28,326 bases of DNA from a virus (Duplodnaviria; Heunggongvirae; Uroviricota; Caudoviricetes), in IMG/VR virus record IMGVR_UViG_2529292734_000016. The stretch is one strand, 5' to 3'. Both the position numbers and the translations under genes were made by a program. The notes beneath the pieces are model-generated. The model had not been told where the DNA came from and ran no database searches. It saw only the letters and a program-made list of their open reading frames with translations. Positions 1,788 through 8,700 of this stretch are shown here, one piece after another (positions within the stretch are counted from its first letter, which is position 1; each line of letters opens with the position of its first letter).

Positions 1788-1816
1788 TTGCATTTTTCAA
1801 AAAATCTGGTTAGGAT
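1788..1816 (+). promoter_or_regulatory. Candidate late promoter (pR'-like): -35 TTGCAT, 17-bp spacer, -10 TAGGAT, overlapping palindrome TTAGGATTTTCCTAA
   Basis: Hexamers read directly at 1788-1793 and 1811-1816, just downstream of the Q stop codon. Confidence 0.35.
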
Positions 1817-1866
1817 TTTCCTAACGATGGGCTTTGTATGTCTGCCGTTAACGAAATCATAACAAA

Positions 1867-1894
1867 CCTCGCTTCGGCGGGGTTTTTGCTTTTC
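1867..1894 (+). terminator. Intrinsic terminator (tR'-like) between Q and the first late gene
   Basis: CCTCGC-TTCG-GCGGGG hairpin (6-bp stem with one G-U pair, UUCG tetraloop) followed by TTTTTGCTTTT. Confidence 0.5.
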
Positions 1895-1906
1895 TGGAGG
1901 TCAATA

Positions 1907-2164
1907 ATGCAGGGCGAAAAGCAGCAGCCATATTTTTTTAACCCTGGTATGACTGTTGAACAGCTTGAAGACTGGCTGGAGCAGCAAAAGCTGCATCTAA
2001 GCCGCTATAACCGTCTGGTAAAAGAAAAAGCAGAGCTTGAAGAACGGCTCAGTGATATTTCTGTGGAAATTGAACGAATGTCTGCTGGTGGTTTTAACGG
2101 AAAGTTGAGTTTCCCTTGGGAGTCAAGTTCGCTTCTGAGAAATCATCAACAGGGTAGTGTTTGA
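1907..2164 (+). CDS. Hypothetical small protein, first gene after the tR'-like terminator
   Basis: In-frame ATG at 1907 with GGAGG 7 nt upstream. The annotated upstream start at 1838 would place the terminator hairpin inside the coding sequence. Confidence 0.45.
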   Translation: MQGEKQQPYFFNPGMTVEQLEDWLEQQKLHLSRYNRLVKEKAELEERLSDISVEIERMSAGGFNGKLSFPWESSSLLRNHQQGSV

Positions 2165-2243
2165 CTGAAATAATAAACAGACTGTCATTAAGATCCCTTC
2201 CCCTCATATCTGAGAGGACCAACAGCAATTAAGAGGGGGCTAA

Positions 2244-2898: not shown

Positions 2899-3512
2899 TG
2901 AACCAACAATTATTTCAAAAGGCGGCTGGTATTAGCGCCGGGCTGGCTGCGCGCTGGTTTCCGCACATTGATGCGGCGATGAAGGAATTCGGCATTACAG
3001 CACCAGCGGATCAGGCAATGTTTATCGCTCAGGTAGGCCATGAGTCGATGGGGTTTAGCGCCGTAGTTGAAAATTTTAACTACACACCATCTGCGCTGGT
3101 GGCGACGTTCGGAAAGAGGATCACACAGCAGCAGGCTGATGCCCTTGGCAGAACATCCGGACATGCAGCTCGTCAGGATGCTATTGCCAATCTGGTGTAT
3201 AGCAACAGACTGGGTAACAAAGCACCAGGTGATGGCTGGAAATATCGTGGTAGAGGATTAATTCAAATCACTGGCCTCCATAATTATCGCATCTGTGGCG
3301 CGGCGCTGAAGTTAGATCTGGTGACTTCACCTGAACAACTGGAACAGGAACTACAGGCTGCGCGCTCAGCTGCATGGTTCTACACATCTAAAGGCTGCAT
3401 GGTCTACGGTGCCGATATTAATCGTGTTACGCGCATCATTAACGGCGGTATGAACGGTATTGAGGATCGTAAGGTTCGATACAACAAGGCGCGGGCGGCG
3501 CTGCTGATATGA
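2898..3512 (+). CDS. Endolysin, glycoside hydrolase family 19 (chitinase-like lysozyme)
   Basis: Motifs FIAQVGHES, YRGRGLIQITG and INGGMNG are characteristic of GH19-type phage endolysins; located between holin and Rz. Confidence 0.8.
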   Translation: MNQQLFQKAAGISAGLAARWFPHIDAAMKEFGITAPADQAMFIAQVGHESMGFSAVVENFNYTPSALVATFGKRITQQQADALGRTSGHAARQDAIANLVYSNRLGNKAPGDGWKYRGRGLIQITGLHNYRICGAALKLDLVTSPEQLEQELQAARSAAWFYTSKGCMVYGADINRVTRIINGGMNGIEDRKVRYNKARAALLI

Positions 3513-3970
3513 AGATGAGTTATTGGGCGCTCATTTTAACGTTTATTGCTTGTATTGCTGGTGGTCTTGTCTGGTCAGCTAATCATTACCACAATAAAGC
3601 CATTGAATACAAAAAACAGCGCGACGAAAACGCTATGGCATTAGATTCGGCTATGGCGACGATCTCTGATATGCAGAAGCGTCAACGTGACGTAGCAGAA
3701 CTCGATGCCAGATATACAAAGGAGCTTGCTGATGCTAACGCGACTATCGAAAGTCTCCGTGCTGATGTTTCTGCTGGTCGTAAGCGCCTGCAAGTCGCCG
3801 CCACCTGTGCAAAGTCAACGACCGGAGCCAGCGGCATGGGCGATGGAGAAAGCCCAGGACTTACAACAGATGCTGAACTCAATTATTACCGTCTCCGAAG
3901 TGGAATCGACAGGATAACCGCGCAGGTTAACTACCTGCAGGAGTACATCAGGACGCAATGCCTGAAATAA
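3509..3970 (+). CDS. Rz: i-spanin (Rz)
   Basis: N-terminal transmembrane segment (YWALILTFIACIAGGLVW), coiled-coil-like periplasmic domain, and an embedded +1-frame lipoprotein gene. Confidence 0.75.
   Translation: MKMSYWALILTFIACIAGGLVWSANHYHNKAIEYKKQRDENAMALDSAMATISDMQKRQRDVAELDARYTKELADANATIESLRADVSAGRKRLQVAATCAKSTTGASGMGDGESPGLTTDAELNYYRLRSGIDRITAQVNYLQEYIRTQCLK
3732..3917 (+). CDS. Rz1: o-spanin (Rz1), fully embedded in Rz in another frame
   Basis: ATG at 3732 with AAAGGAG 7 nt upstream; lipoprotein signal with lipobox VSAC and a proline-rich mature region (KSPPPVQSQRPEPAAW). Confidence 0.65.
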   Translation: MLTRLSKVSVLMFLLVVSACKSPPPVQSQRPEPAAWAMEKAQDLQQMLNSIITVSEVESTG

Positions 3971-4002
3971 TTTTTTTTGCAAATCACAAAGTCCATTTAA
4001 TG

Positions 4003-4026
4003 AGCCTCGCGATGCGGGGCTTTTTG
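4003..4026 (+). terminator. Intrinsic terminator after the lysis cassette (first of two)
   Basis: AGCCTCGC-GAT-GCGGGGCT hairpin (8-bp stem with one G-U pair) followed by TTTTT. Confidence 0.5.
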
Positions 4027-4032
4027 CAATAA

Positions 4033-4057
4033 ATGCGTACCGCAACGCATGTTTTTT
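4033..4057 (+). terminator. Intrinsic terminator after the lysis cassette (second of two)
   Basis: ATGCGT-ACCGCA-ACGCAT hairpin followed by GTTTTTT. Confidence 0.5.
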
Positions 4058-4172
4058 ACACCGAACCTGCCCCTTTGGAATGGGCCTTTGAGGATACCAG
4101 TTAGTGCTGGCGAGCCTCGGTGGGCTGGTTTCCTGTGCGGCAAAGGTTCATTTCAAAGAGTAGGTACACGCT

Positions 4173-4670
4173 ATGAAATCATTAACCCTCTTCAATCAAC
4201 CAATTCGTATCGGTGAAGATGGCATGATCTGCCTCACTGATATGTGGAAAGCCAGTGGTAAAAGTGAATCTGAATCTCCGTACCACTACCTGCGAAACAA
4301 GCAGACCAAAGAGTTCTTAGCTGAGCTGGAGAAAAACCACGAATCTGTGGTTTTTACTGAGCGCGGTGTACACGGTGGAACATATGGCGGGAAGTTTGTT
4401 GCTTACGATTATGCGGCTTGGTTAAACCCCGGGTTCAAGTACGCGGCCTATAAAGTCCTGGATGACTACTTCACCGGAGAACTTCAGCATCGCAACAGCT
4501 TAAGTGCGCAGCTCAACATGAAATGTCATGAGTTTGACCAGAAGAAAGACATGGCGAGCTTCTGCGGACAAGGGCTGGCGGCATGGCGCTATACGAAGCC
4601 AGTGTTGGTCGCTGAGATTAACTCCCTGGCTAACCAGCTGCAGATAACGATCCCCGGGCTTCCGGGATGA
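4173..4670 (+). CDS. KilA-N domain protein
   Basis: N-terminal region (FNQPIRIGEDGMICLTDMWKASGK...YAAWLNP) resembles KilA-N/Bro-N DNA-binding domains of phage antirepressor-like proteins. Confidence 0.6.
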   Translation: MKSLTLFNQPIRIGEDGMICLTDMWKASGKSESESPYHYLRNKQTKEFLAELEKNHESVVFTERGVHGGTYGGKFVAYDYAAWLNPGFKYAAYKVLDDYFTGELQHRNSLSAQLNMKCHEFDQKKDMASFCGQGLAAWRYTKPVLVAEINSLANQLQITIPGLPG

Positions 4671-5086
4671 GTGATCGTGTCATTGAATGCGCCTCCAGAG
4701 CGGGGCACGACTTCTCAGAGTTCATGAAAGGCGAGAAGGGCATGATGGAAGCATTGGCCTCGGTGGATGAGTTTGGCGAGCAGCTGCGCCTCAACGGCTG
4801 TGTCAATCATCACTTTGTTAGCTACATGATGCGGAACTCGATCATGCAGGCATTCATGGACATGGCAAAAGCCGAGAGGAAAGAAGAGCGCCGGCGTAAG
4901 CGAGCGGAAGCAAAAGCGGACCAGCAGCGTACTGAAGAACATGCCGCAGCAACTGAAGCGGTTGCAGAACGCCGGGTAGAAACAACGAAAGAGGCCAGCA
5001 ATGTACAGCAGAGTGTTAACCATATGCTTGGCGACGATGTTGATCGTGAGCTGCGCAACAACTGGACCCGCCCCGGTAGTCGTTGA
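4667..5086 (+). CDS. Hypothetical protein, translationally coupled to the KilA-N gene
   Basis: ATGA stop/start overlap at 4667-4670; charged Arg/Lys/Glu-rich central segment; no recognisable family. Confidence 0.45.
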   Translation: MSDRVIECASRAGHDFSEFMKGEKGMMEALASVDEFGEQLRLNGCVNHHFVSYMMRNSIMQAFMDMAKAERKEERRRKRAEAKADQQRTEEHAAATEAVAERRVETTKEASNVQQSVNHMLGDDVDRELRNNWTRPGSR

Positions 5087-5231
5087 TACCGCGTGCGATT
5101 GGGTTAAGCCTATCTATCTTACTGACCACGATATTTCCGCTATGGATAAACAGATGAAGCGCGACATCCTGACGCATAACAAAACATGGCAGTCGAACTG
5201 TTTGAAGGGAGAAACTGAAATGAAGCAGTAA
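5001..5231 (+). CDS. Putative small lipoprotein
   Basis: Signal peptide with lipobox-like LIVSC; GAAAGAGG 6 nt upstream of the ATG; overlaps the 3' end of the preceding gene in another frame. Confidence 0.45.
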   Translation: MYSRVLTICLATMLIVSCATTGPAPVVVDTACDWVKPIYLTDHDISAMDKQMKRDILTHNKTWQSNCLKGETEMKQ

Positions 5232-5512
5232 AGCGGACAGACCGCCCTTACAAGCCGCAGTCATGATGCTACCCCGAGTCTCAATGAGAGCCAGATGCAG
5301 GTCCAAACTGCAATACGCGCTGGTGAGGGTTAACGAAGAAAAAGGCGTACCGGTACTCCAGAGCGATCGCCAGTCGCTCACCGGTTAGAGGTGAGGGATT
5401 CATGAGATACCCCTGACTACAGACTCAAGGGCATGAGCGCGGCCACTGCGAGAGTGTGGTTTATAACCGCTAAAAAATTTATACTCCATGGGCATTGAGC
5501 ATGGAGGGTTGA

Positions 5513-5920
5513 ATGAAACTAGATATCGATTATTTAAAGTCGTTCTTAGCTTTATTTTTAGAATCTGAAAATCCATTTGTTTCGACAGATGAGTTGGCTA
5601 AAGCCGGTTACGATATTTCAGATGCTGTTGGATATTTTCACTACACCCAGCTAATTGAAAAAGGATTCGTGAGTACCTTGGATCTCAGGACGGGCAACCC
5701 AAAAGAGTTGGGATTAGTATTTTCTACAAATAGCATCACAAGCTGGTCTACTTACATCAGGCTAACTTCAAGCGGATATGATTTTGCATTGTCATTAAGT
5801 AAGCCGGATGTTTTTGAAAGATTGAAAGAGTTGAGCAATGAACCCATCGGGGTTTTGAAGGATGTTGGTGTTGAATTGCTTAAGTCTTATGCCAAGAAGA
5901 AGCTTGGTTTATCTGATTAG
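5513..5920 (+). CDS. Hypothetical protein in an AT-rich single-gene cassette
   Basis: 135-aa ORF in a visibly AT-rich block with candidate -10 TATACT at 5480-5485, GGAGGG RBS and a downstream intrinsic terminator. Confidence 0.55.
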   Translation: MKLDIDYLKSFLALFLESENPFVSTDELAKAGYDISDAVGYFHYTQLIEKGFVSTLDLRTGNPKELGLVFSTNSITSWSTYIRLTSSGYDFALSLSKPDVFERLKELSNEPIGVLKDVGVELLKSYAKKKLGLSD

Positions 5921-5947
5921 TATTACTTTCAAATAAAATGAAGTAGG

Positions 5948-5980
5948 AAGCCACAGGCATGTGCCGGTGGCTTTTTTTTA
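5948..5980 (+). terminator. Intrinsic terminator after the AT-rich cassette
   Basis: AAGCCAC ... GTGGCTT stem followed by an 8-T run. Confidence 0.55.
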
Positions 5981-5991
5981 TTGGAGTAAAT

Positions 5992-6342
5992 ATGCCACCC
6001 CGGACACCTAAAGCTTGCCGTGTTCGCGGCTGCCGCTCTACAACAACAGACCCATCAGGTTACTGCGAGTCCCACAAAGGCGAAGGCTGGAAATCCTACA
6101 AATCGGGACAATCCCGGCATCAGCGCGGCTACGGTTCGAAGTGGGATGTTATCCGTGAACGAGTGCTGAAGCGTGACAAAGGCCTGTGTCAGTTATGTCT
6201 GCATGCCGGTGTGGTGCGTGAGGCGAAAACTGTTGACCACATCATCCCTAAAGCGCATGGCGGCACTGATGCCGATATTAATCTGCAGAGCCTGTGCTGG
6301 CCGTGTCATAAGGCGAAGACGGCCCGTGAACGACTTAAGTGA
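5992..6342 (+). CDS. HNH endonuclease (phage packaging-associated)
   Basis: ATG at 5992 with GGAG 5 nt upstream; HNH motif (CQLCLHAG...VDHIIPKAHGGTD...NLQSLCWPCHKAK); positioned immediately upstream of TerS as in HK97-like phages. Confidence 0.8.
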   Translation: MPPRTPKACRVRGCRSTTTDPSGYCESHKGEGWKSYKSGQSRHQRGYGSKWDVIRERVLKRDKGLCQLCLHAGVVREAKTVDHIIPKAHGGTDADINLQSLCWPCHKAKTARERLK

Positions 6343-6467
6343 TAATAATTCTCAACTTTCTGAGGGGAGGGGCGGGTCAAATCTCTATGACCTGACGTCT
6401 TCCGGACTGCCCGCCCCATCGTTTTTTTATACCCGCGAAAAATGAAATTTAACCAGGAGTGCCGCAT

Positions 6468-6953
6468 ATGGCTGGAACGGCGGGGCGTTCCGGGCGTCGC
6501 CCCAAGCCAACGGCGCGCAAGGCGCTGGCCGGAAACCCCGGCAAGCGAGCCCTGAATAAAGATGAACCTGTTTTTACGCCCATCAAAGGTGTTGAGCCAC
6601 CGGAGTGGTTCGCTGAAGAAGATCTCCCTCTCGCCACGATCATGTGGCAACTGACAACCAAAGAACTCTGCGGTCAGGGCCTGCTGTGCGTGACTGACCT
6701 GGCGGTACTTGAGCGGTGGTGTGTGGCCTATGAGTTCTGGCGACGTGCCGTGAAAAATATTGCCAGACAGGGTAACACCATCACCGGTGCAATGGGTGGC
6801 ATGGTCAAAAATCCGGAGCTGACCGCCAAAAAAGAACAGGAGTCCGAGATGAGCAGCACGGGGGCAATGCTCGGACTCGACCCCAGCAGCCGCCAGCGTC
6901 TGATTGGCCTGGCGGGGAAGAAGAAAGCCACTAACCCGTTTCTGACAATCTGA
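6468..6953 (+). CDS. Terminase small subunit (P27-like family)
   Basis: ATG at 6468 with AGGAG 9 nt upstream; N-terminal GRSGRRPKP motif and position directly before the large terminase. Confidence 0.7.
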
Positions 6954-6966
6954 AAATCATCGAATC

Positions 6967-8700
6967 ATGAGCCGGAAATCTTACCCCAACGTAAATGCTG
7001 CCAATCAGTATGCCCGGGATGTCGTGCGCGGAAAGATTGTGGCCTGCCAGTTTGTGATTCAGGCCTGCCAGCGCCATCTTGATGACCTGATGGCGGAAAA
7101 AAGTAAGTCGTTTCGTTACCGCTTCGACAAGGACCTGGCTGAACGGGCCGCGAAATTTATTCAGCTGTTGCCGCACACCAAGGGGGAGTGGGCATTCAAA
7201 CGGATGCCCATCACGCTGGAGCCGTGGCAGCTCTTTGTGATCTGCTGTGCGTTTGGCTGGGTCAATAAAGGCACCCGGCTGCGCCGCTTCCGAGAGGTGT
7301 ACACCGAAATCCCCCGTAAGAACGGCAAATCAGCAATCTCTGCCGGTGTTGCCCTGTATTGTTTTGCCTGTGATAACGAGTTTGGCGCGGAAGTGTATTC
7401 CGGTGCCACGACAGAGAAACAGGCGTGGGAAGTCTTTCGCCCGGCGCGACTGATGTGTAAACGCACACCCATGCTGACGGAAGCGTTCGGGATTGAGGTT
7501 AACGCCTCAAACATGAACCGTCCGGAGGATGGCGCGCGGTTTGAACCGCTGATCGGCAACCCAGGTGATGGTTCATCACCCCACTGTGCCGTGGTTGATG
7601 AATATCACGAGCATGCCACCGATGCGCTTTATACCACAATGCTTACCGGGATGGGGGCGCGACGTCAGCCACTGATGTGGGCCATCACCACCGCCGGGTA
7701 CAACATTGAGGGGCCGTGCTACGACAAACGGCGGGAAGTCATCGAGATGCTCAACGGCTCGGTGCCTAACGATGAACTGTTCGGGATCATCTATACCGTT
7801 GATGAAGGTGACGACTGGACCGACCCGCAGGTGCTGGAAAAAGCCAATCCAAATATTGGCGTGTCGGTTTATCGCGAATTTTTGTTAAGTCAGCAGCAGC
7901 GTGCGAAAAATAATGCCCGTCTGGCAAACGTCTTTAAAACAAAACACCTCAATATCTGGGTGTCGGCGCGTTCGGCGTATTTCAACCTGGTGAGCTGGCA
8001 GAGCTGCGAGGATAAATCACTGACCCTTGAGCAGTTCGAGGGGCAGCCGTGCATTCTGGCCTTTGACCTGGCGCGTAAGCTGGATATGAACAGCATGGCG
8101 CGACTTTATACCCGCGAGATTGACGGTAAAACGCATTACTACAGTGTGGCCCCGCGTTTCTGGGTACCGTATGACACGGTGTACAGCGTCGAGAAAAATG
8201 AAGATCGCCGGACAGCCGAACGCTTTCAGAAATGGGTGGAAATGGGCGTTCTGACTGTTACCGCTGGTGCGGAGGTGGATTATCGCTACATCCTCGAGGA
8301 GGCCAAAGCGGCGAACAAAATCAGCCCGGTCAGTGAGTCACCCATCGACCCCTTCGGGGCGACCGGGCTGTCGCATGACCTTGCTGATGAAGACCTGAAC
8401 CCCATCACCATCATTCAGAACTACACCAACATGTCCGATCCGATGAAAGAGCTGGAAGCGGCGATTGAATCGGGGCGCTTTCATCATGACGGCAATCCCA
8501 TCATGACCTGGTGTATCGGCAACGTGGTCGGCAAAACCATTCCGGGTAACGATGATGTGGTGAAGCCTGTCAAGGAGCAGGCGGAAAACAAAATCGATGG
8601 TGCGGTTGCACTGATTATGGCGATCGGTCGGGCAATGCTCAAAGAACCCGACGATTTCCTCTCATCTCTTGATCCGGACGATGTTCTCTTAATTCTATGA
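6967..8700 (+). CDS. Terminase large subunit
   Basis: 577-aa protein with ATPase and nuclease regions typical of Terminase_1-type TerL; followed by portal, protease and capsid. Confidence 0.9.

What the first reader, a model, noticed from the sequence alone, without database searches (positions are those of the whole stretch)
5390..5990. AT-rich single-gene cassette with own promoter and terminator upstream of the HNH-terminase block
A 135-aa ORF (5513-5920) sits in a sharply AT-rich block with a candidate -10 (TATACT at 5480-5485), a GGAGGG RBS, and an intrinsic terminator at 5948-5980. A 7-bp inverted repeat (CTCCATG at 5484-5490 and CATGGAG at 5500-5506) overlaps the RBS and could occlude it in the 5' UTR. 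The block sits between the lysis/KilA-N region and the packaging genes, a position where lambdoid and HK97-like prophages often carry accessory genes. The protein has no features I can assign to a structural or lysis role, making it a candidate single-gene defence or regulatory moron.
Basis: partly seen in the sequence, partly recalled or inferred. Interest (0 to 1): 0.65.

Follow-up and report, generated by a model that had tools for sequence, protein, structure and literature searches.

The report
Prophage accessory gene cassette, winged-helix protein
This is a real, self-contained accessory gene ("moron") in an E. coli prophage that encodes a small winged-helix protein of unknown function; it is an ordinary kind of feature, but its ribosome-binding site is locked in a hairpin and a widespread structured RNA absent from Rfam lies just upstream.

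Summary
The ORF (5513-5920), the AT-rich block, the 7-bp inverted repeat over the RBS and the strong terminator are all there. Only the promoter is weak: a -10 hexamer with no -35.

Comparison shows a mosaic cargo module. Window 4903-5978 is one block, 77.6% identical to Enterobacter prophages, recombined into the KilA-N/HNH slot. Close E. coli relatives have that slot empty or filled with other genes.

The protein belongs to PHROG 585, a divergent DUF2513 branch of unknown function. It is acidic, with a confidently modelled winged helix and a nearly invariant C-terminal tail. It matches no defence, packaging or lysis family.

Across 29 non-redundant family loci:
- The gene is AT-rich in 28.
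- It is terminator-flanked in 22.
- It lies between lysis and terminase genes of many unrelated types.

Its Shine-Dalgarno is hairpin-occluded in 7 of 9 lineages, by unrelated sequences.

Best reading: a gene expressed in the lysogen and insulated from the late operon. Its biochemical role is unresolved, and a defence role is neither supported nor excluded.

In passing: a ~225-nt structured RNA (5232-5460), not in Rfam, with strong covariation, precedes variable cargo in many lambdoid phages.

The parts
4903..5978 (+). Imported mosaic block. It contains the tail of a foreign lysis module, a structured RNA, and the cassette (promoter-like region, hairpin, ORF, terminator).
   Evidence: One continuous 1,090-nt alignment at 77.6% identity to Enterobacter prophage contigs L004/L005. 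Homology to E. coli relatives of this prophage stops at 4918 and resumes at 5974-6012.
5001..5231 (+). 76-aa ORF with a signal peptide and lipobox (…MLIVSC). It is probably the o-spanin-like end of the donor's lysis cassette and is redundant here.
   Evidence: Read directly from the sequence. The homologous region in L023/L004 lies directly after the endolysin, as an overlapping 89-aa/65-aa ORF pair. There is no Pfam hit and no similarity to an annotated LysC, so the assignment is positional only.
5207..5231 (+). SD (GGGAGA) followed by the mini-ORF ATG AAG CAG TAA, abutting the RNA element. Here it is in frame with the end of the 76-aa ORF.
   Evidence: An SD, an ATG, 1-4 codons and a stop precede nearly all 70 aligned copies of the element.
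5232..5460 (+). Conserved ~225-nt structured RNA element that forms the left anchor of the cargo slot. It ends in the hairpin GCCACUGC-GAGA-GUGUGG.
   Evidence: 77-88% identical copies in other prophages stop at exactly this 3' end and are then followed by different genes. The 16-mer at 5444-5459 occurs in at least 120 IMG/VR contigs. Covariation: 93.2% of cells paired, and 237 double-change cells against 67.6±6.5 in shuffles, 0/500. It is not in Rfam 15.
5480..5485 (+). -10-like hexamer TATACT, the candidate cassette promoter. There is no convincing -35.
   Evidence: The hexamer is identical in the Enterobacter homologue. A -10-like hexamer ends 25-30 nt before the ATG in 7 of 9 family lineages.
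5484..5506 (+). Hairpin CTCCATG-N9-CATGGAG. Its 3' arm contains the SD, and its 5' arm overlaps the -10 hexamer.
   Evidence: The arms are conserved but the loop differs at 5 of 9 positions in L004-L006.
5503..5508 (+). Shine-Dalgarno GGAGGG.
5513..5920 (+). 135-aa ORF of the phrog_585 / divergent DUF2513 family. It encodes an acidic winged-helix protein with a nearly invariant C-terminal tail of ~35 residues.
5948..5979 (+). Intrinsic terminator: a 12-nt-arm hairpin followed by T8. An upstream A-tract (5929-5943) could make it bidirectional.
   Evidence: Terminator-like sites follow the gene in 22 of 29 non-redundant family loci.
5980..5994 (+). Right junction of the slot: ATTGGAG (the HNH RBS) followed by the HNH start ATG at 5992.
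   Evidence: The same 'T-run + ATTGGAG + N5-6 + ATGCC' junction lies behind different cargo in L001 and L023 and in Pantoea L015.
5992..6342 (+). HNH endonuclease gene, the first gene of the packaging block (context).

Best explanation
The locus is a moron-type cargo cassette. It entered this SfV/HK97-like E. coli prophage by recombination with a lambdoid phage of the Enterobacter type. It came as a ~1.08-kb block that also carries the tail of the donor's lysis module and a conserved structured RNA.

The cassette encodes a 135-aa acidic protein of the uncharacterised phrog_585/DUF2513 family. Residues 1-100 form a winged helix. The C-terminal helices are nearly invariant and probably form a dimer or partner interface.

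The gene is insulated from the late operon in which it is embedded in two ways.
- Transcription: a strong intrinsic terminator lies directly after the stop codon.
- Translation: a hairpin sequesters the Shine-Dalgarno.

The hairpin's 5' arm overlaps the -10-like hexamer. Transcripts that start at the cassette's own promoter would therefore lack the anti-SD arm and be translatable. Q-antiterminated read-through transcripts would carry the arm and be largely silent. On this reading the protein is made mainly in the lysogen, at a modest level. It would act by binding a partner rather than by catalysis, most plausibly a protein or nucleic acid of the host or of another phage.

Shown here: the anatomy, the mosaic origin, the dispensability, and the family-wide AT-richness, terminator, SD occlusion and position.
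Inferred: promoter use, the transcription start site, expression in the lysogen, dimerisation, and the kind of target.
For: Anatomy.

Mosaic origin and dispensability:
- Homology to about 1,900 E. coli genomes covers both flanks but not 4919-5990.
- In relatives the slot is empty (L003), holds a 92-aa gene (L001), a Gp49-family gene (L002) or an S1 peptidase (L023).
- The single 77.6% block shared with L004/L005 is shown.

Family-level signature in 29 non-redundant loci:
- Gene GC has a median of 0.387 against 0.493 for flanks, and is lower in 28 of 29.
- A terminator-like hairpin with a T-run lies within 90 nt of the stop in 22 of 29.

SD occlusion: 7 of 9 lineages have P(unpaired) of 0.03 or less, using different sequences. 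The fraction of shuffles at least as occluded is 0.04 or less in 6 of them. A -10-like hexamer ends 25-30 nt before the ATG in 7 of 9. The hairpin arms are conserved and the loop has diverged between the window and Enterobacter.

Temperate-only distribution: 4 of 50,697 phage genomes, each showing temperate features (prophage-derived, integrase-bearing or with a lambdoid Q/lysis layout). The family was also found in 39 IMG/VR contigs and 4 species genomes.

Independence from packaging type: the identical proteins P0016, P0002 and P0195 occur with different TerS/TerL modules. At least 5 TerS families lie downstream across the family.

Protein:
- phrog_585 full-length match, E = 3e-20.
- AF2 pLDDT above 90 for residues 1-100, winged helix.
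- The C-terminal 35 aa are nearly invariant.
Against: - No sigma-70 promoter passes the consensus scan. The -35 is 2/6. -10-like hexamers are easy to find in AT-rich DNA, and no null model was run for their position.
- In several lineages the gene starts only about 60 nt, or 34 nt, after the preceding late gene. That fits simple co-transcription with the late operon.
- The gene is always in late-operon orientation.
- 7 of 29 loci showed no terminator with my ad hoc scan.
- SD occlusion was not seen in the L012 and L015 lineages.
- No expression data exist.
- The molecular target is unknown, and no homologue has a tested function.
Confidence: 0.5

Rival explanations
1. It is an ordinary late-operon accessory gene. 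It is transcribed only by Q-modified read-through during lytic growth and serves lysis or DNA packaging, for example as a cos/pac-region or terminase helper. The terminator is then merely an mRNA 3' stabiliser or a relic.
For: - It has the same orientation as the late operon and lies at the lysis-terminase junction across the family. In 28 non-redundant loci lysis-gene families dominate upstream and terminase/portal families dominate downstream.
- Gaps to the upstream Rz-type gene are short in some lineages.
- In Aeromonas it lies 15 nt upstream of the presumptive large terminase, where a small terminase would be expected.
- Promoter evidence is weak.
Against: - The closest relatives of this prophage lack the gene yet keep identical packaging genes.
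- Identical proteins are paired with unrelated TerS/TerL/portal types.
- A recognisable TerS is present in the window and in most loci.
- A 31%-identical relative sits near xis/int instead.
- SD occlusion and a terminator are not what a needed late gene would carry.
- There is no similarity to any terminase or lysis family.
Confidence: 0.22
2. It is a single-gene anti-phage defence or superinfection-exclusion factor. The variable winged-helix part senses an incoming phage component and the invariant C-terminal tail acts on a conserved host or phage target.
For: - It is prophage cargo in a hypervariable slot. The equivalent slots behind the same RNA element hold 33 PHROG families among 57 genes, including a PADLOC candidate (PDC-S45) and DNA methyltransferases.
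- It is AT-rich foreign DNA, rare and patchily distributed.
- The pattern of a variable N-terminal/wing region and an invariant C-terminus is shown.
Against: - There is no match to any of 5,027 PADLOC models.
- The 135-aa protein has no enzymatic or recognisable effector domain.
- The C-terminal helix is not amphipathic enough for a membrane-active role (hydrophobic moment 0.22).
- No conserved partner gene is present.
- No experimental precedent exists for DUF2513.
Confidence: 0.18
3. It is an autoregulated MarR-like DNA-binding transcription factor. The dimer binds the palindrome CTCCATG-N9-CATGGAG, which overlaps its own -10/start site, and it may also bind host or phage promoters.
For: - Best structural matches are MarR-family repressors and other winged-helix DNA binders.
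- It has the 'R-L-T-x-x-G' wing-to-helix motif typical of MarR-like proteins (the comparison rests on my own knowledge).
- The palindrome arms are conserved while the spacer has diverged in the Enterobacter homologue.
Against: - The winged-helix domain is acidic: net -4 here, family median -5, domain pI about 4.7.
- The predicted recognition helix (38-49, AVGYFHYTQLIE) has no Lys or Arg.
- No MarR/PadR Pfam model matches even at E = 10.
- Other lineages have no such palindrome. They have SD-pairing hairpins of unrelated sequence, which points to an RNA-level function rather than an operator.
- Structural matches are weak (Foldseek E of 0.026 or higher, TM about 0.4).
Confidence: 0.12

Closest known systems
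Morons of lambdoid phages (Juhala et al. 2000, HK97/HK022; e.g. HK97 gp15, lambda bor/lom). The concept is cited in PMC4104026.
   Same: - A single extra gene set between two conserved phage genes and absent from close relatives.
- Deviating (AT-rich) composition.
- A factor-independent terminator directly downstream and a promoter-like sequence upstream.
- Location in a known permissive junction of the late region.
   Different: - The promoter is only a -10-like hexamer.
- The SD is sequestered by a hairpin whose 5' arm overlaps that hexamer. To my knowledge this arrangement has not been described for classical morons.
- The cassette arrived as part of a larger block led by a conserved structured RNA.
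Pfam DUF2513 (PF10711) / PHROG phrog_585, both of unknown function
   Same: - Full-length match to phrog_585 (E = 3e-20).
- UniRef names this exact protein 'DUF2513 domain-containing', and NCBI gives that name to several close relatives.
- Remote relatives P0204 and P0208 carry PF10711.
- Size is uniform at about 130-146 aa.
   Different: - This protein scores 14 bits against a Pfam cut-off of 29.6.
- The subfamily has its own nearly invariant C-terminal tail.
- No member of either family has a tested function.
MarR/PadR/TubR-type winged-helix dimers (e.g. PDB 2qww, 4asn, 7el2; STIV F93, 2co5)
   Different: - No sequence-profile membership.
- An acidic DNA-reading surface.
- Low model confidence for residues 100-135.
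- Dimerisation and DNA binding are untested.
SD-sequestering 5'-UTR hairpins (translational repression elements, RNA thermometers of the ROSE/fourU kind)
   Same: A short hairpin pairs the GGAG of the SD. This is conserved as structure, not sequence, across the family.
   Different: - No ROSE/fourU sequence features and no Rfam match.
- The proposed switch is the choice of transcription start, not temperature.
- Neither mechanism was tested.

Membership tests
Moron (Juhala et al. 2000) | The gene is present in one phage and absent between the same flanking genes in close relatives. | tested here: met
   Flanks are 92-99% identical in E. coli prophages that lack 4919-5990. The slot is empty in L003 and holds other cargo in L001, L002 and L023.
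Moron (Juhala et al. 2000) | Nucleotide composition differs from the surrounding phage genome. | tested here: met
   GC is 0.375 against 0.50-0.55. The gene's GC is lower than its flanks in 28 of 29 family loci.
Moron (Juhala et al. 2000) | Its own factor-independent terminator lies downstream. | tested here: met
   The hairpin has an MFE of -18.5 kcal/mol (z -3.65) and is followed by T8. A terminator-like site is present in 22 of 29 family loci.
Moron (Juhala et al. 2000) | Its own promoter lies upstream. | tested here: inconclusive
   TATACT is a 5/6 match but the best -35 is 2/6, and the scanner finds none. The hexamer is conserved in the Enterobacter homologue, and -10-like hexamers recur at -25 to -30 in 7 of 9 lineages.
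Moron (Juhala et al. 2000) | The gene is expressed from the repressed prophage. | not testable with these tools
   This needs RNA 5'-end mapping or proteomics of the lysogen.
Pfam DUF2513 (PF10711) | The whole-protein score reaches the gathering cut-off of 29.6 bits. | tested here: not met
   The score is 14 bits (E = 0.068), although the match spans profile positions 1-96 of 100. Relatives at profile E = 4e-23 (P0204) and 6.7e-4 (P0208) carry PF10711, and sources name close relatives DUF2513. It is best described as a divergent sister subfamily.
PHROG phrog_585 | A significant full-length match to the family HMM. | tested here: met
   E = 3.1e-20, residues 1-133 matched to profile positions 1-127 of 128.
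MarR-family transcription factors | A match to the MarR/MarR_2 sequence profiles. | tested here: not met
   No Pfam family other than DUF2513 appears even at E = 10. There are no PDB sequence hits.
MarR-family transcription factors | A winged-helix fold with N- and C-terminal dimerisation helices. | tested here: inconclusive
MarR-family transcription factors | A basic DNA-reading surface on the recognition helix and wing. | tested here: not met
   The domain has net charge -4 and pI 4.7. Helix 38-49 has no K or R, and the wing has only R83.
Known anti-phage defence systems (PADLOC-DB 2.0) | A match to any defence-protein model. | tested here: not met
   0 families at E up to 10.
Small terminase / packaging accessory | Homology to a TerS family, or co-variation with the terminase type. 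| tested here: not met
   No Pfam, NCBIfam or PHROG terminase match. The same protein occurs with different TerS/TerL types. The window has its own P27-family TerS.
Intrinsic (Rho-independent) terminator | A GC-rich hairpin immediately followed by a U-tract. | tested here: met
   5948-5973 hairpin followed by U8.
Rfam families (for the upstream RNA element 5232-5460) | A covariance-model match. | tested here: not met
   No hit with E of 1 or less in 4000-7000. Only a spurious E = 9 hit appears in 5200-5520. There are no hits with E of 0.1 or less in seven other loci that carry the element.

The most novel reading that the evidence does not exclude
The cassette is one instance of a general cargo system of enterobacterial temperate phages. 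In this reading a ~225-nt structured RNA, preceded by an SD and a 1-4-codon mini-ORF, marks and services hypervariable cargo slots. It might insulate, process or license expression of whatever gene follows. The slots lie behind tR', in the PL operon and after the lysis genes. The DUF2513-like protein would then be a new single-gene exclusion or defence factor whose synthesis is gated by choice of transcription start (own promoter: SD free; late read-through: SD locked).
Probability: 0.12. Interest if true: 0.75.

Novelty: new member of a known kind. Interest (0 to 1): 0.4.

Why it matters
The cassette itself adds one more uncharacterised moron to a long list, so taken alone it matters little.

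Two aspects could matter.

First, the family-wide pairing of a terminator with an SD-locking hairpin abutting a -10-like hexamer suggests a simple design. With it, a gene embedded in a heavily transcribed late operon could be expressed only in the lysogen. This is cheap to test and would apply to many prophage cargo genes.

Second, the conserved structured RNA just upstream is widespread, shows strong covariation and is absent from Rfam. It sits in front of highly diverse cargo genes. If it is a cis-acting element of cargo slots, it would be both a new RNA class and a practical marker for finding prophage accessory, defence and anti-defence genes.

Tried and rejected
- **PDB sequence searches.** The single protein and the family profile gave nothing meaningful; the best hit was gyrase A at E = 0.056.
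- **NCBIfam and PADLOC.** No hits.
- **Literature.** Searches for DUF2513, PF10711 and phrog_585 found no functional study.
- **C-terminal tail as a MinD/FtsA-like amphipathic membrane-targeting helix.** Rejected: the hydrophobic moment is only 0.22 for residues 113-130.
- **The protein as a small terminase, suggested by the Aeromonas arrangement.** Rejected on independence from terminase type.
- **The 76-aa ORF (5001-5231) as LysC/Rz1-like.** I recalled this from a motif. It has no Pfam hit and no similarity to an annotated LysC, so only the positional and lipobox argument is kept.
- **The upstream RNA element as known prophage sRNAs.** AgvB/AsxR are 51-60 nt and lie elsewhere, and no Pas or STnc100 family matched in the Rfam scans. 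No Rfam match was found, and its conserved 12-mer appears in no relevant paper.
- **The element as an antiterminator upstream of a terminator.** Not supported: only 5 of 73 copies have a terminator-like site within 160 nt downstream.
- **The element as a 3'-UTR element upstream of PR'.** Contradicted by mEp237, where it follows PR' and tR'.
- **Not attempted.** A dimer structure prediction, because concatenated sequences are not accepted by the tool. A covariance model of the element was also not built.
Full report

Yes. The window carries an ATG-initiated 135-codon ORF at 5513-5920 on the + strand. It lies in a block whose GC content falls to 0.38-0.40 between flanks of 0.52-0.58.

- GGAGGG lies 4 nt before the ATG.
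- The 7-bp inverted repeat CTCCATG/CATGGAG is at exactly the stated positions. As RNA it pairs the Shine-Dalgarno: MFE -12.4 kcal/mol, z -2.3, and P(SD unpaired) 0.02 against 0.40 in shuffles.
- The terminator is strong. A hairpin of -18.5 kcal/mol (z -3.65; no shuffle out of 200 folds as well) is followed by eight T. The consensus scanner missed it only because of one internal mismatch.
- The weak element is the promoter. TATACT is a 5/6 match to the -10, but the best -35 is 2/6 and there is no extended -10. The scanner finds no + strand promoter.

**2. Where does the window come from, and what surrounds the gene?**

The protein is 100% identical to a hypothetical protein of E. coli C691-71 (14b), contig JXBV01000092.1. 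Pfam calls on that contig give this order: DUF968, Q antiterminator, two holins, GH19 endolysin, Rz, KilA-N, the cassette, HNH, P27-family TerS, TerL, portal, S78 protease, HK97-type capsid, then a sheath/tube tail. SfII, SfIV and SfV genomes begin at window positions of about 6343-6420. The cos site is therefore probably between HNH and TerS, which puts the cassette near the right end of the virion chromosome.

**3. The cassette is mosaic cargo.**

About 1,900 E. coli genomes match the flanks at 92-99% identity, but none matches 4919-5990. In those relatives the KilA-N-to-HNH slot varies:
- empty (L003);
- a 92-aa gene (L001);
- a Gp49-family gene (L002);
- an S1 peptidase (L023).

Enterobacter prophage contigs align to window 4903-5978 as one 1,090-nt block at 77.6% identity. 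This block contains:
- the end of a second lysis module, consisting of a chimeric 139-aa ORF and a 76-aa lipobox ORF;
- a conserved non-coding element;
- the promoter-like region with the hairpin;
- the ORF;
- the terminator.

The right junction is the terminator T-run, then ATTGGAG, then the HNH ATG. The same junction lies behind unrelated cargo in L001 and L023 and in Pantoea L015. The slot is thus bounded by conserved anchors at which modules are exchanged.

**4. The protein.**

- Pfam gives only a sub-threshold, but full-length, DUF2513 match: 14 bits against a cut-off of 29.6.
- PHROGs gives a full-length match to phrog_585, of unknown function, at E = 3e-20.
- NCBIfam and PADLOC give nothing.
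- Word-indexed searches find about 60 clusters in Enterobacterales and Aeromonas.
- An exhaustive profile search finds 297 clusters at E < 1e-3, nearly all of 130-146 aa.
- Two remote relatives carry PF10711, and sources name close relatives DUF2513. This is therefore a divergent DUF2513 subfamily.
- No paper in the library reports a function.

The C-terminal 35 residues are nearly invariant across the family, while the wing and helix 2 vary. The family is acidic: median pI 5.2 and winged-helix net charge about -5. The predicted recognition helix of the window protein has no Lys or Arg. I therefore regard classical operator binding as less likely than protein, or atypical nucleic-acid, binding. 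The tail is not a membrane-type amphipathic helix.

**5. Family-level genomic signature.**

I collected 50 loci, 29 of them non-redundant at 95%.
- Gene GC has a median of 0.387 against 0.493 for flanks. It is lower in 28 of 29 loci, in hosts ranging from E. coli to Aeromonas.
- 22 of 29 loci have a hairpin with a T-run within 90 nt of the stop.
- Upstream ORFs are holins, lysozymes and Rz-type proteins. Downstream ORFs are terminases and portals of many unrelated families, including five TerS families.
- Identical proteins (P0016, P0002, P0195) are paired with different terminase modules. This argues against a packaging-specific role.
- A 31%-identical relative in phage Chlobot lies near xis/int.
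- Only 4 of 50,697 phage genomes encode a relative, each showing temperate features: prophage-derived, integrase-bearing or with a lambdoid Q/lysis layout.

**6. Translation control.**

In 7 of 9 distinct lineages the SD is predicted to be almost fully paired. P(unpaired) is 0.03 or less, and in 6 of them it is lower than in at least 96% of shuffles. The anti-SD sequences differ from lineage to lineage. Between the window and Enterobacter the arms are identical and the 9-nt loop differs at 5 of 9 positions.

A -10-like hexamer ends 25-30 nt before the ATG in 7 of 9 lineages. In the window it overlaps the 5' arm. A start about 7 nt downstream of TATACT would produce an mRNA without the anti-SD arm, whereas read-through late transcripts would contain it.

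My working model follows from this, and it is an inference. Transcripts from the cassette's own promoter in the lysogen are translated. Q-driven late transcripts are not. The terminator keeps lysogenic transcription out of the packaging genes.

**7. Verdict on function.**

The moron-type anatomy is well supported. Lysogen expression is plausible but unproven. The biochemical role is open. I rank the possibilities as follows:
- a lysogen-expressed binding or regulatory factor of unknown target (best);
- a plain late-operon accessory gene (0.22);
- a defence or exclusion factor (0.18), which is a special case of the best reading rather than independent of it;
- an autoregulated DNA-binding repressor (0.12).

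**8. Noticed in passing: a conserved structured RNA.**

Window 5232-5460, preceded by an SD and the mini-ORF ATG AAG CAG TAA (5207-5231), is a conserved element.

- Copies that are 77-88% identical lie after Q, after a CI-like repressor and after spanin genes in other E. coli prophages. In every case homology stops at …GCGAGAGTGTGG, and a different gene follows.
- The 16-mer at its 3' end occurs in at least 120 IMG/VR contigs.
- 70 non-redundant copies were aligned. They support four variable helices plus a 3' GNRA-capped hairpin.
  - 93.2% of cells are paired.
  - 237 cells have double changes, against 67.6±6.5 in shuffles (0/500) and 28-73 when partners are slid.
  - Frequent G·U pairs indicate the + strand.
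- It matches no Rfam 15 family.
- Upstream neighbours are Q antiterminators (16 of 47), CI-like repressors, Ral, N, Acb2/Tad1 and spanins.
- Downstream genes are very diverse: 33 PHROG families among 57 genes, including holins, N-like proteins, methyltransferases and a PADLOC candidate.
- In phage mEp237 it follows the likely PR' and the tR' terminator.
- E. coli BE2-5 (L021) is 99.5% identical to the window through Q-PR'-tR' up to the SD at 1900, and 97% identical again from 2198. Between those points it has the mini-ORF, the element and a 213-aa gene, where the window has an 85-aa ORF.

The element therefore leads exchangeable cargo modules. Its function is unknown. No terminator generally follows it.

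**9. Novelty and score.**

The finding is a new member of a known kind: a moron encoding a protein from a known family of unknown function. Interest is moderate to low for the cassette itself. The family-wide expression logic raises it somewhat. The adjacent RNA element deserves its own follow-up.

Noticed in passing
window 5207-5460 (+); also L021 2825-3071, L022 2819-3036, L023 3855-4068, L024 3043-3256, L145 (mEp237) 2501-2747, L146 (mEp213) 2501-2725: A widespread ~225-nt structured RNA, preceded by an SD and a 1-4-codon mini-ORF and ending in the hairpin GCCACUGC-GAGA-GUGUGG. It shows strong covariation: 237 double-change cells against 68 in shuffles, 0/500. It is absent from Rfam 15. It lies after Q/tR', after CI-like genes or after spanins, and is always followed by different cargo genes. 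Its function is unknown.
   Followed up: partly
window 1788-2197 versus L021 2700-3902: The window's own late leader has a PR'-like promoter (TTGCAT 1788-1793, 17-nt spacer, TAGGAT 1811-1816), a tR' hairpin at 1867-1882 with a T-run, an SD at 1896-1900, and an 85-aa ORF starting at ATG 1907. A 99.5%-identical E. coli prophage (BE2-5) diverges exactly after the SD. There it carries the mini-ORF, the RNA element and a 213-aa gene. This is a second cargo slot with alternative modules.
   Followed up: partly
window 4667-5231: A chimeric 139-aa ORF, whose first ~250 nt match the gene after KilA-N in E. coli relatives, overlaps a 76-aa lipobox ORF. Together they look like the leftover end of a second (donor) lysis module with an overlapped spanin-like pair. 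The functional Rz/Rz1 pair is at 3509-3970 / 3705-3917. Neither ORF has a Pfam hit.
   Followed up: partly
window ~6343-6458: The published linear genomes of SfII, SfIV, SfV and SfI start at window positions of about 6343-6420. The cos site of this prophage is therefore probably in the HNH-TerS intergenic region.
   Followed up: no
several loci downstream of the RNA element (e.g. L138, L143, L117, L068, L036, L102, L026) and L020 4928-5000: A second recurrent module consists of a hairpin with a conserved loop (…GGCAUUCACUGAGUGCC…) and covarying stems. It is often followed by TGATAATG and then by an SD-sequestering hairpin in front of the cargo gene. The window's hairpin loop GGCATTGAG resembles it.
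   Followed up: no
L004 6575-8604; L194 5942-8535; L196 5942-7974: A recurrent pair of unannotated genes (485 aa and 196-197 aa, with no Pfam families recorded for them at these loci) lies between the DUF2513-like gene and the terminase genes in three different prophage contexts.
   Followed up: no
L193 6001-7398 (Photobacterium sp. TY1-4 chromosome): A more typical DUF2513 protein (146 aa, carrying PF10711) lies outside any recognisable prophage. It is followed 19 nt later by a 312-aa protein with no Pfam hit, so this may be a two-gene module.
   Followed up: no
protein P0034: A 2,457-aa protein matches the family profile (positions 16-57) in 24 separate stretches. It appears to be a giant protein built of repeats resembling part of the winged helix.
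   Followed up: no
window 5929-5985: An A-rich tract (TCAAATAAAATGAAG) upstream of the terminator hairpin is complementary to the T-tract downstream. The terminator could therefore work in both directions.
   Followed up: no
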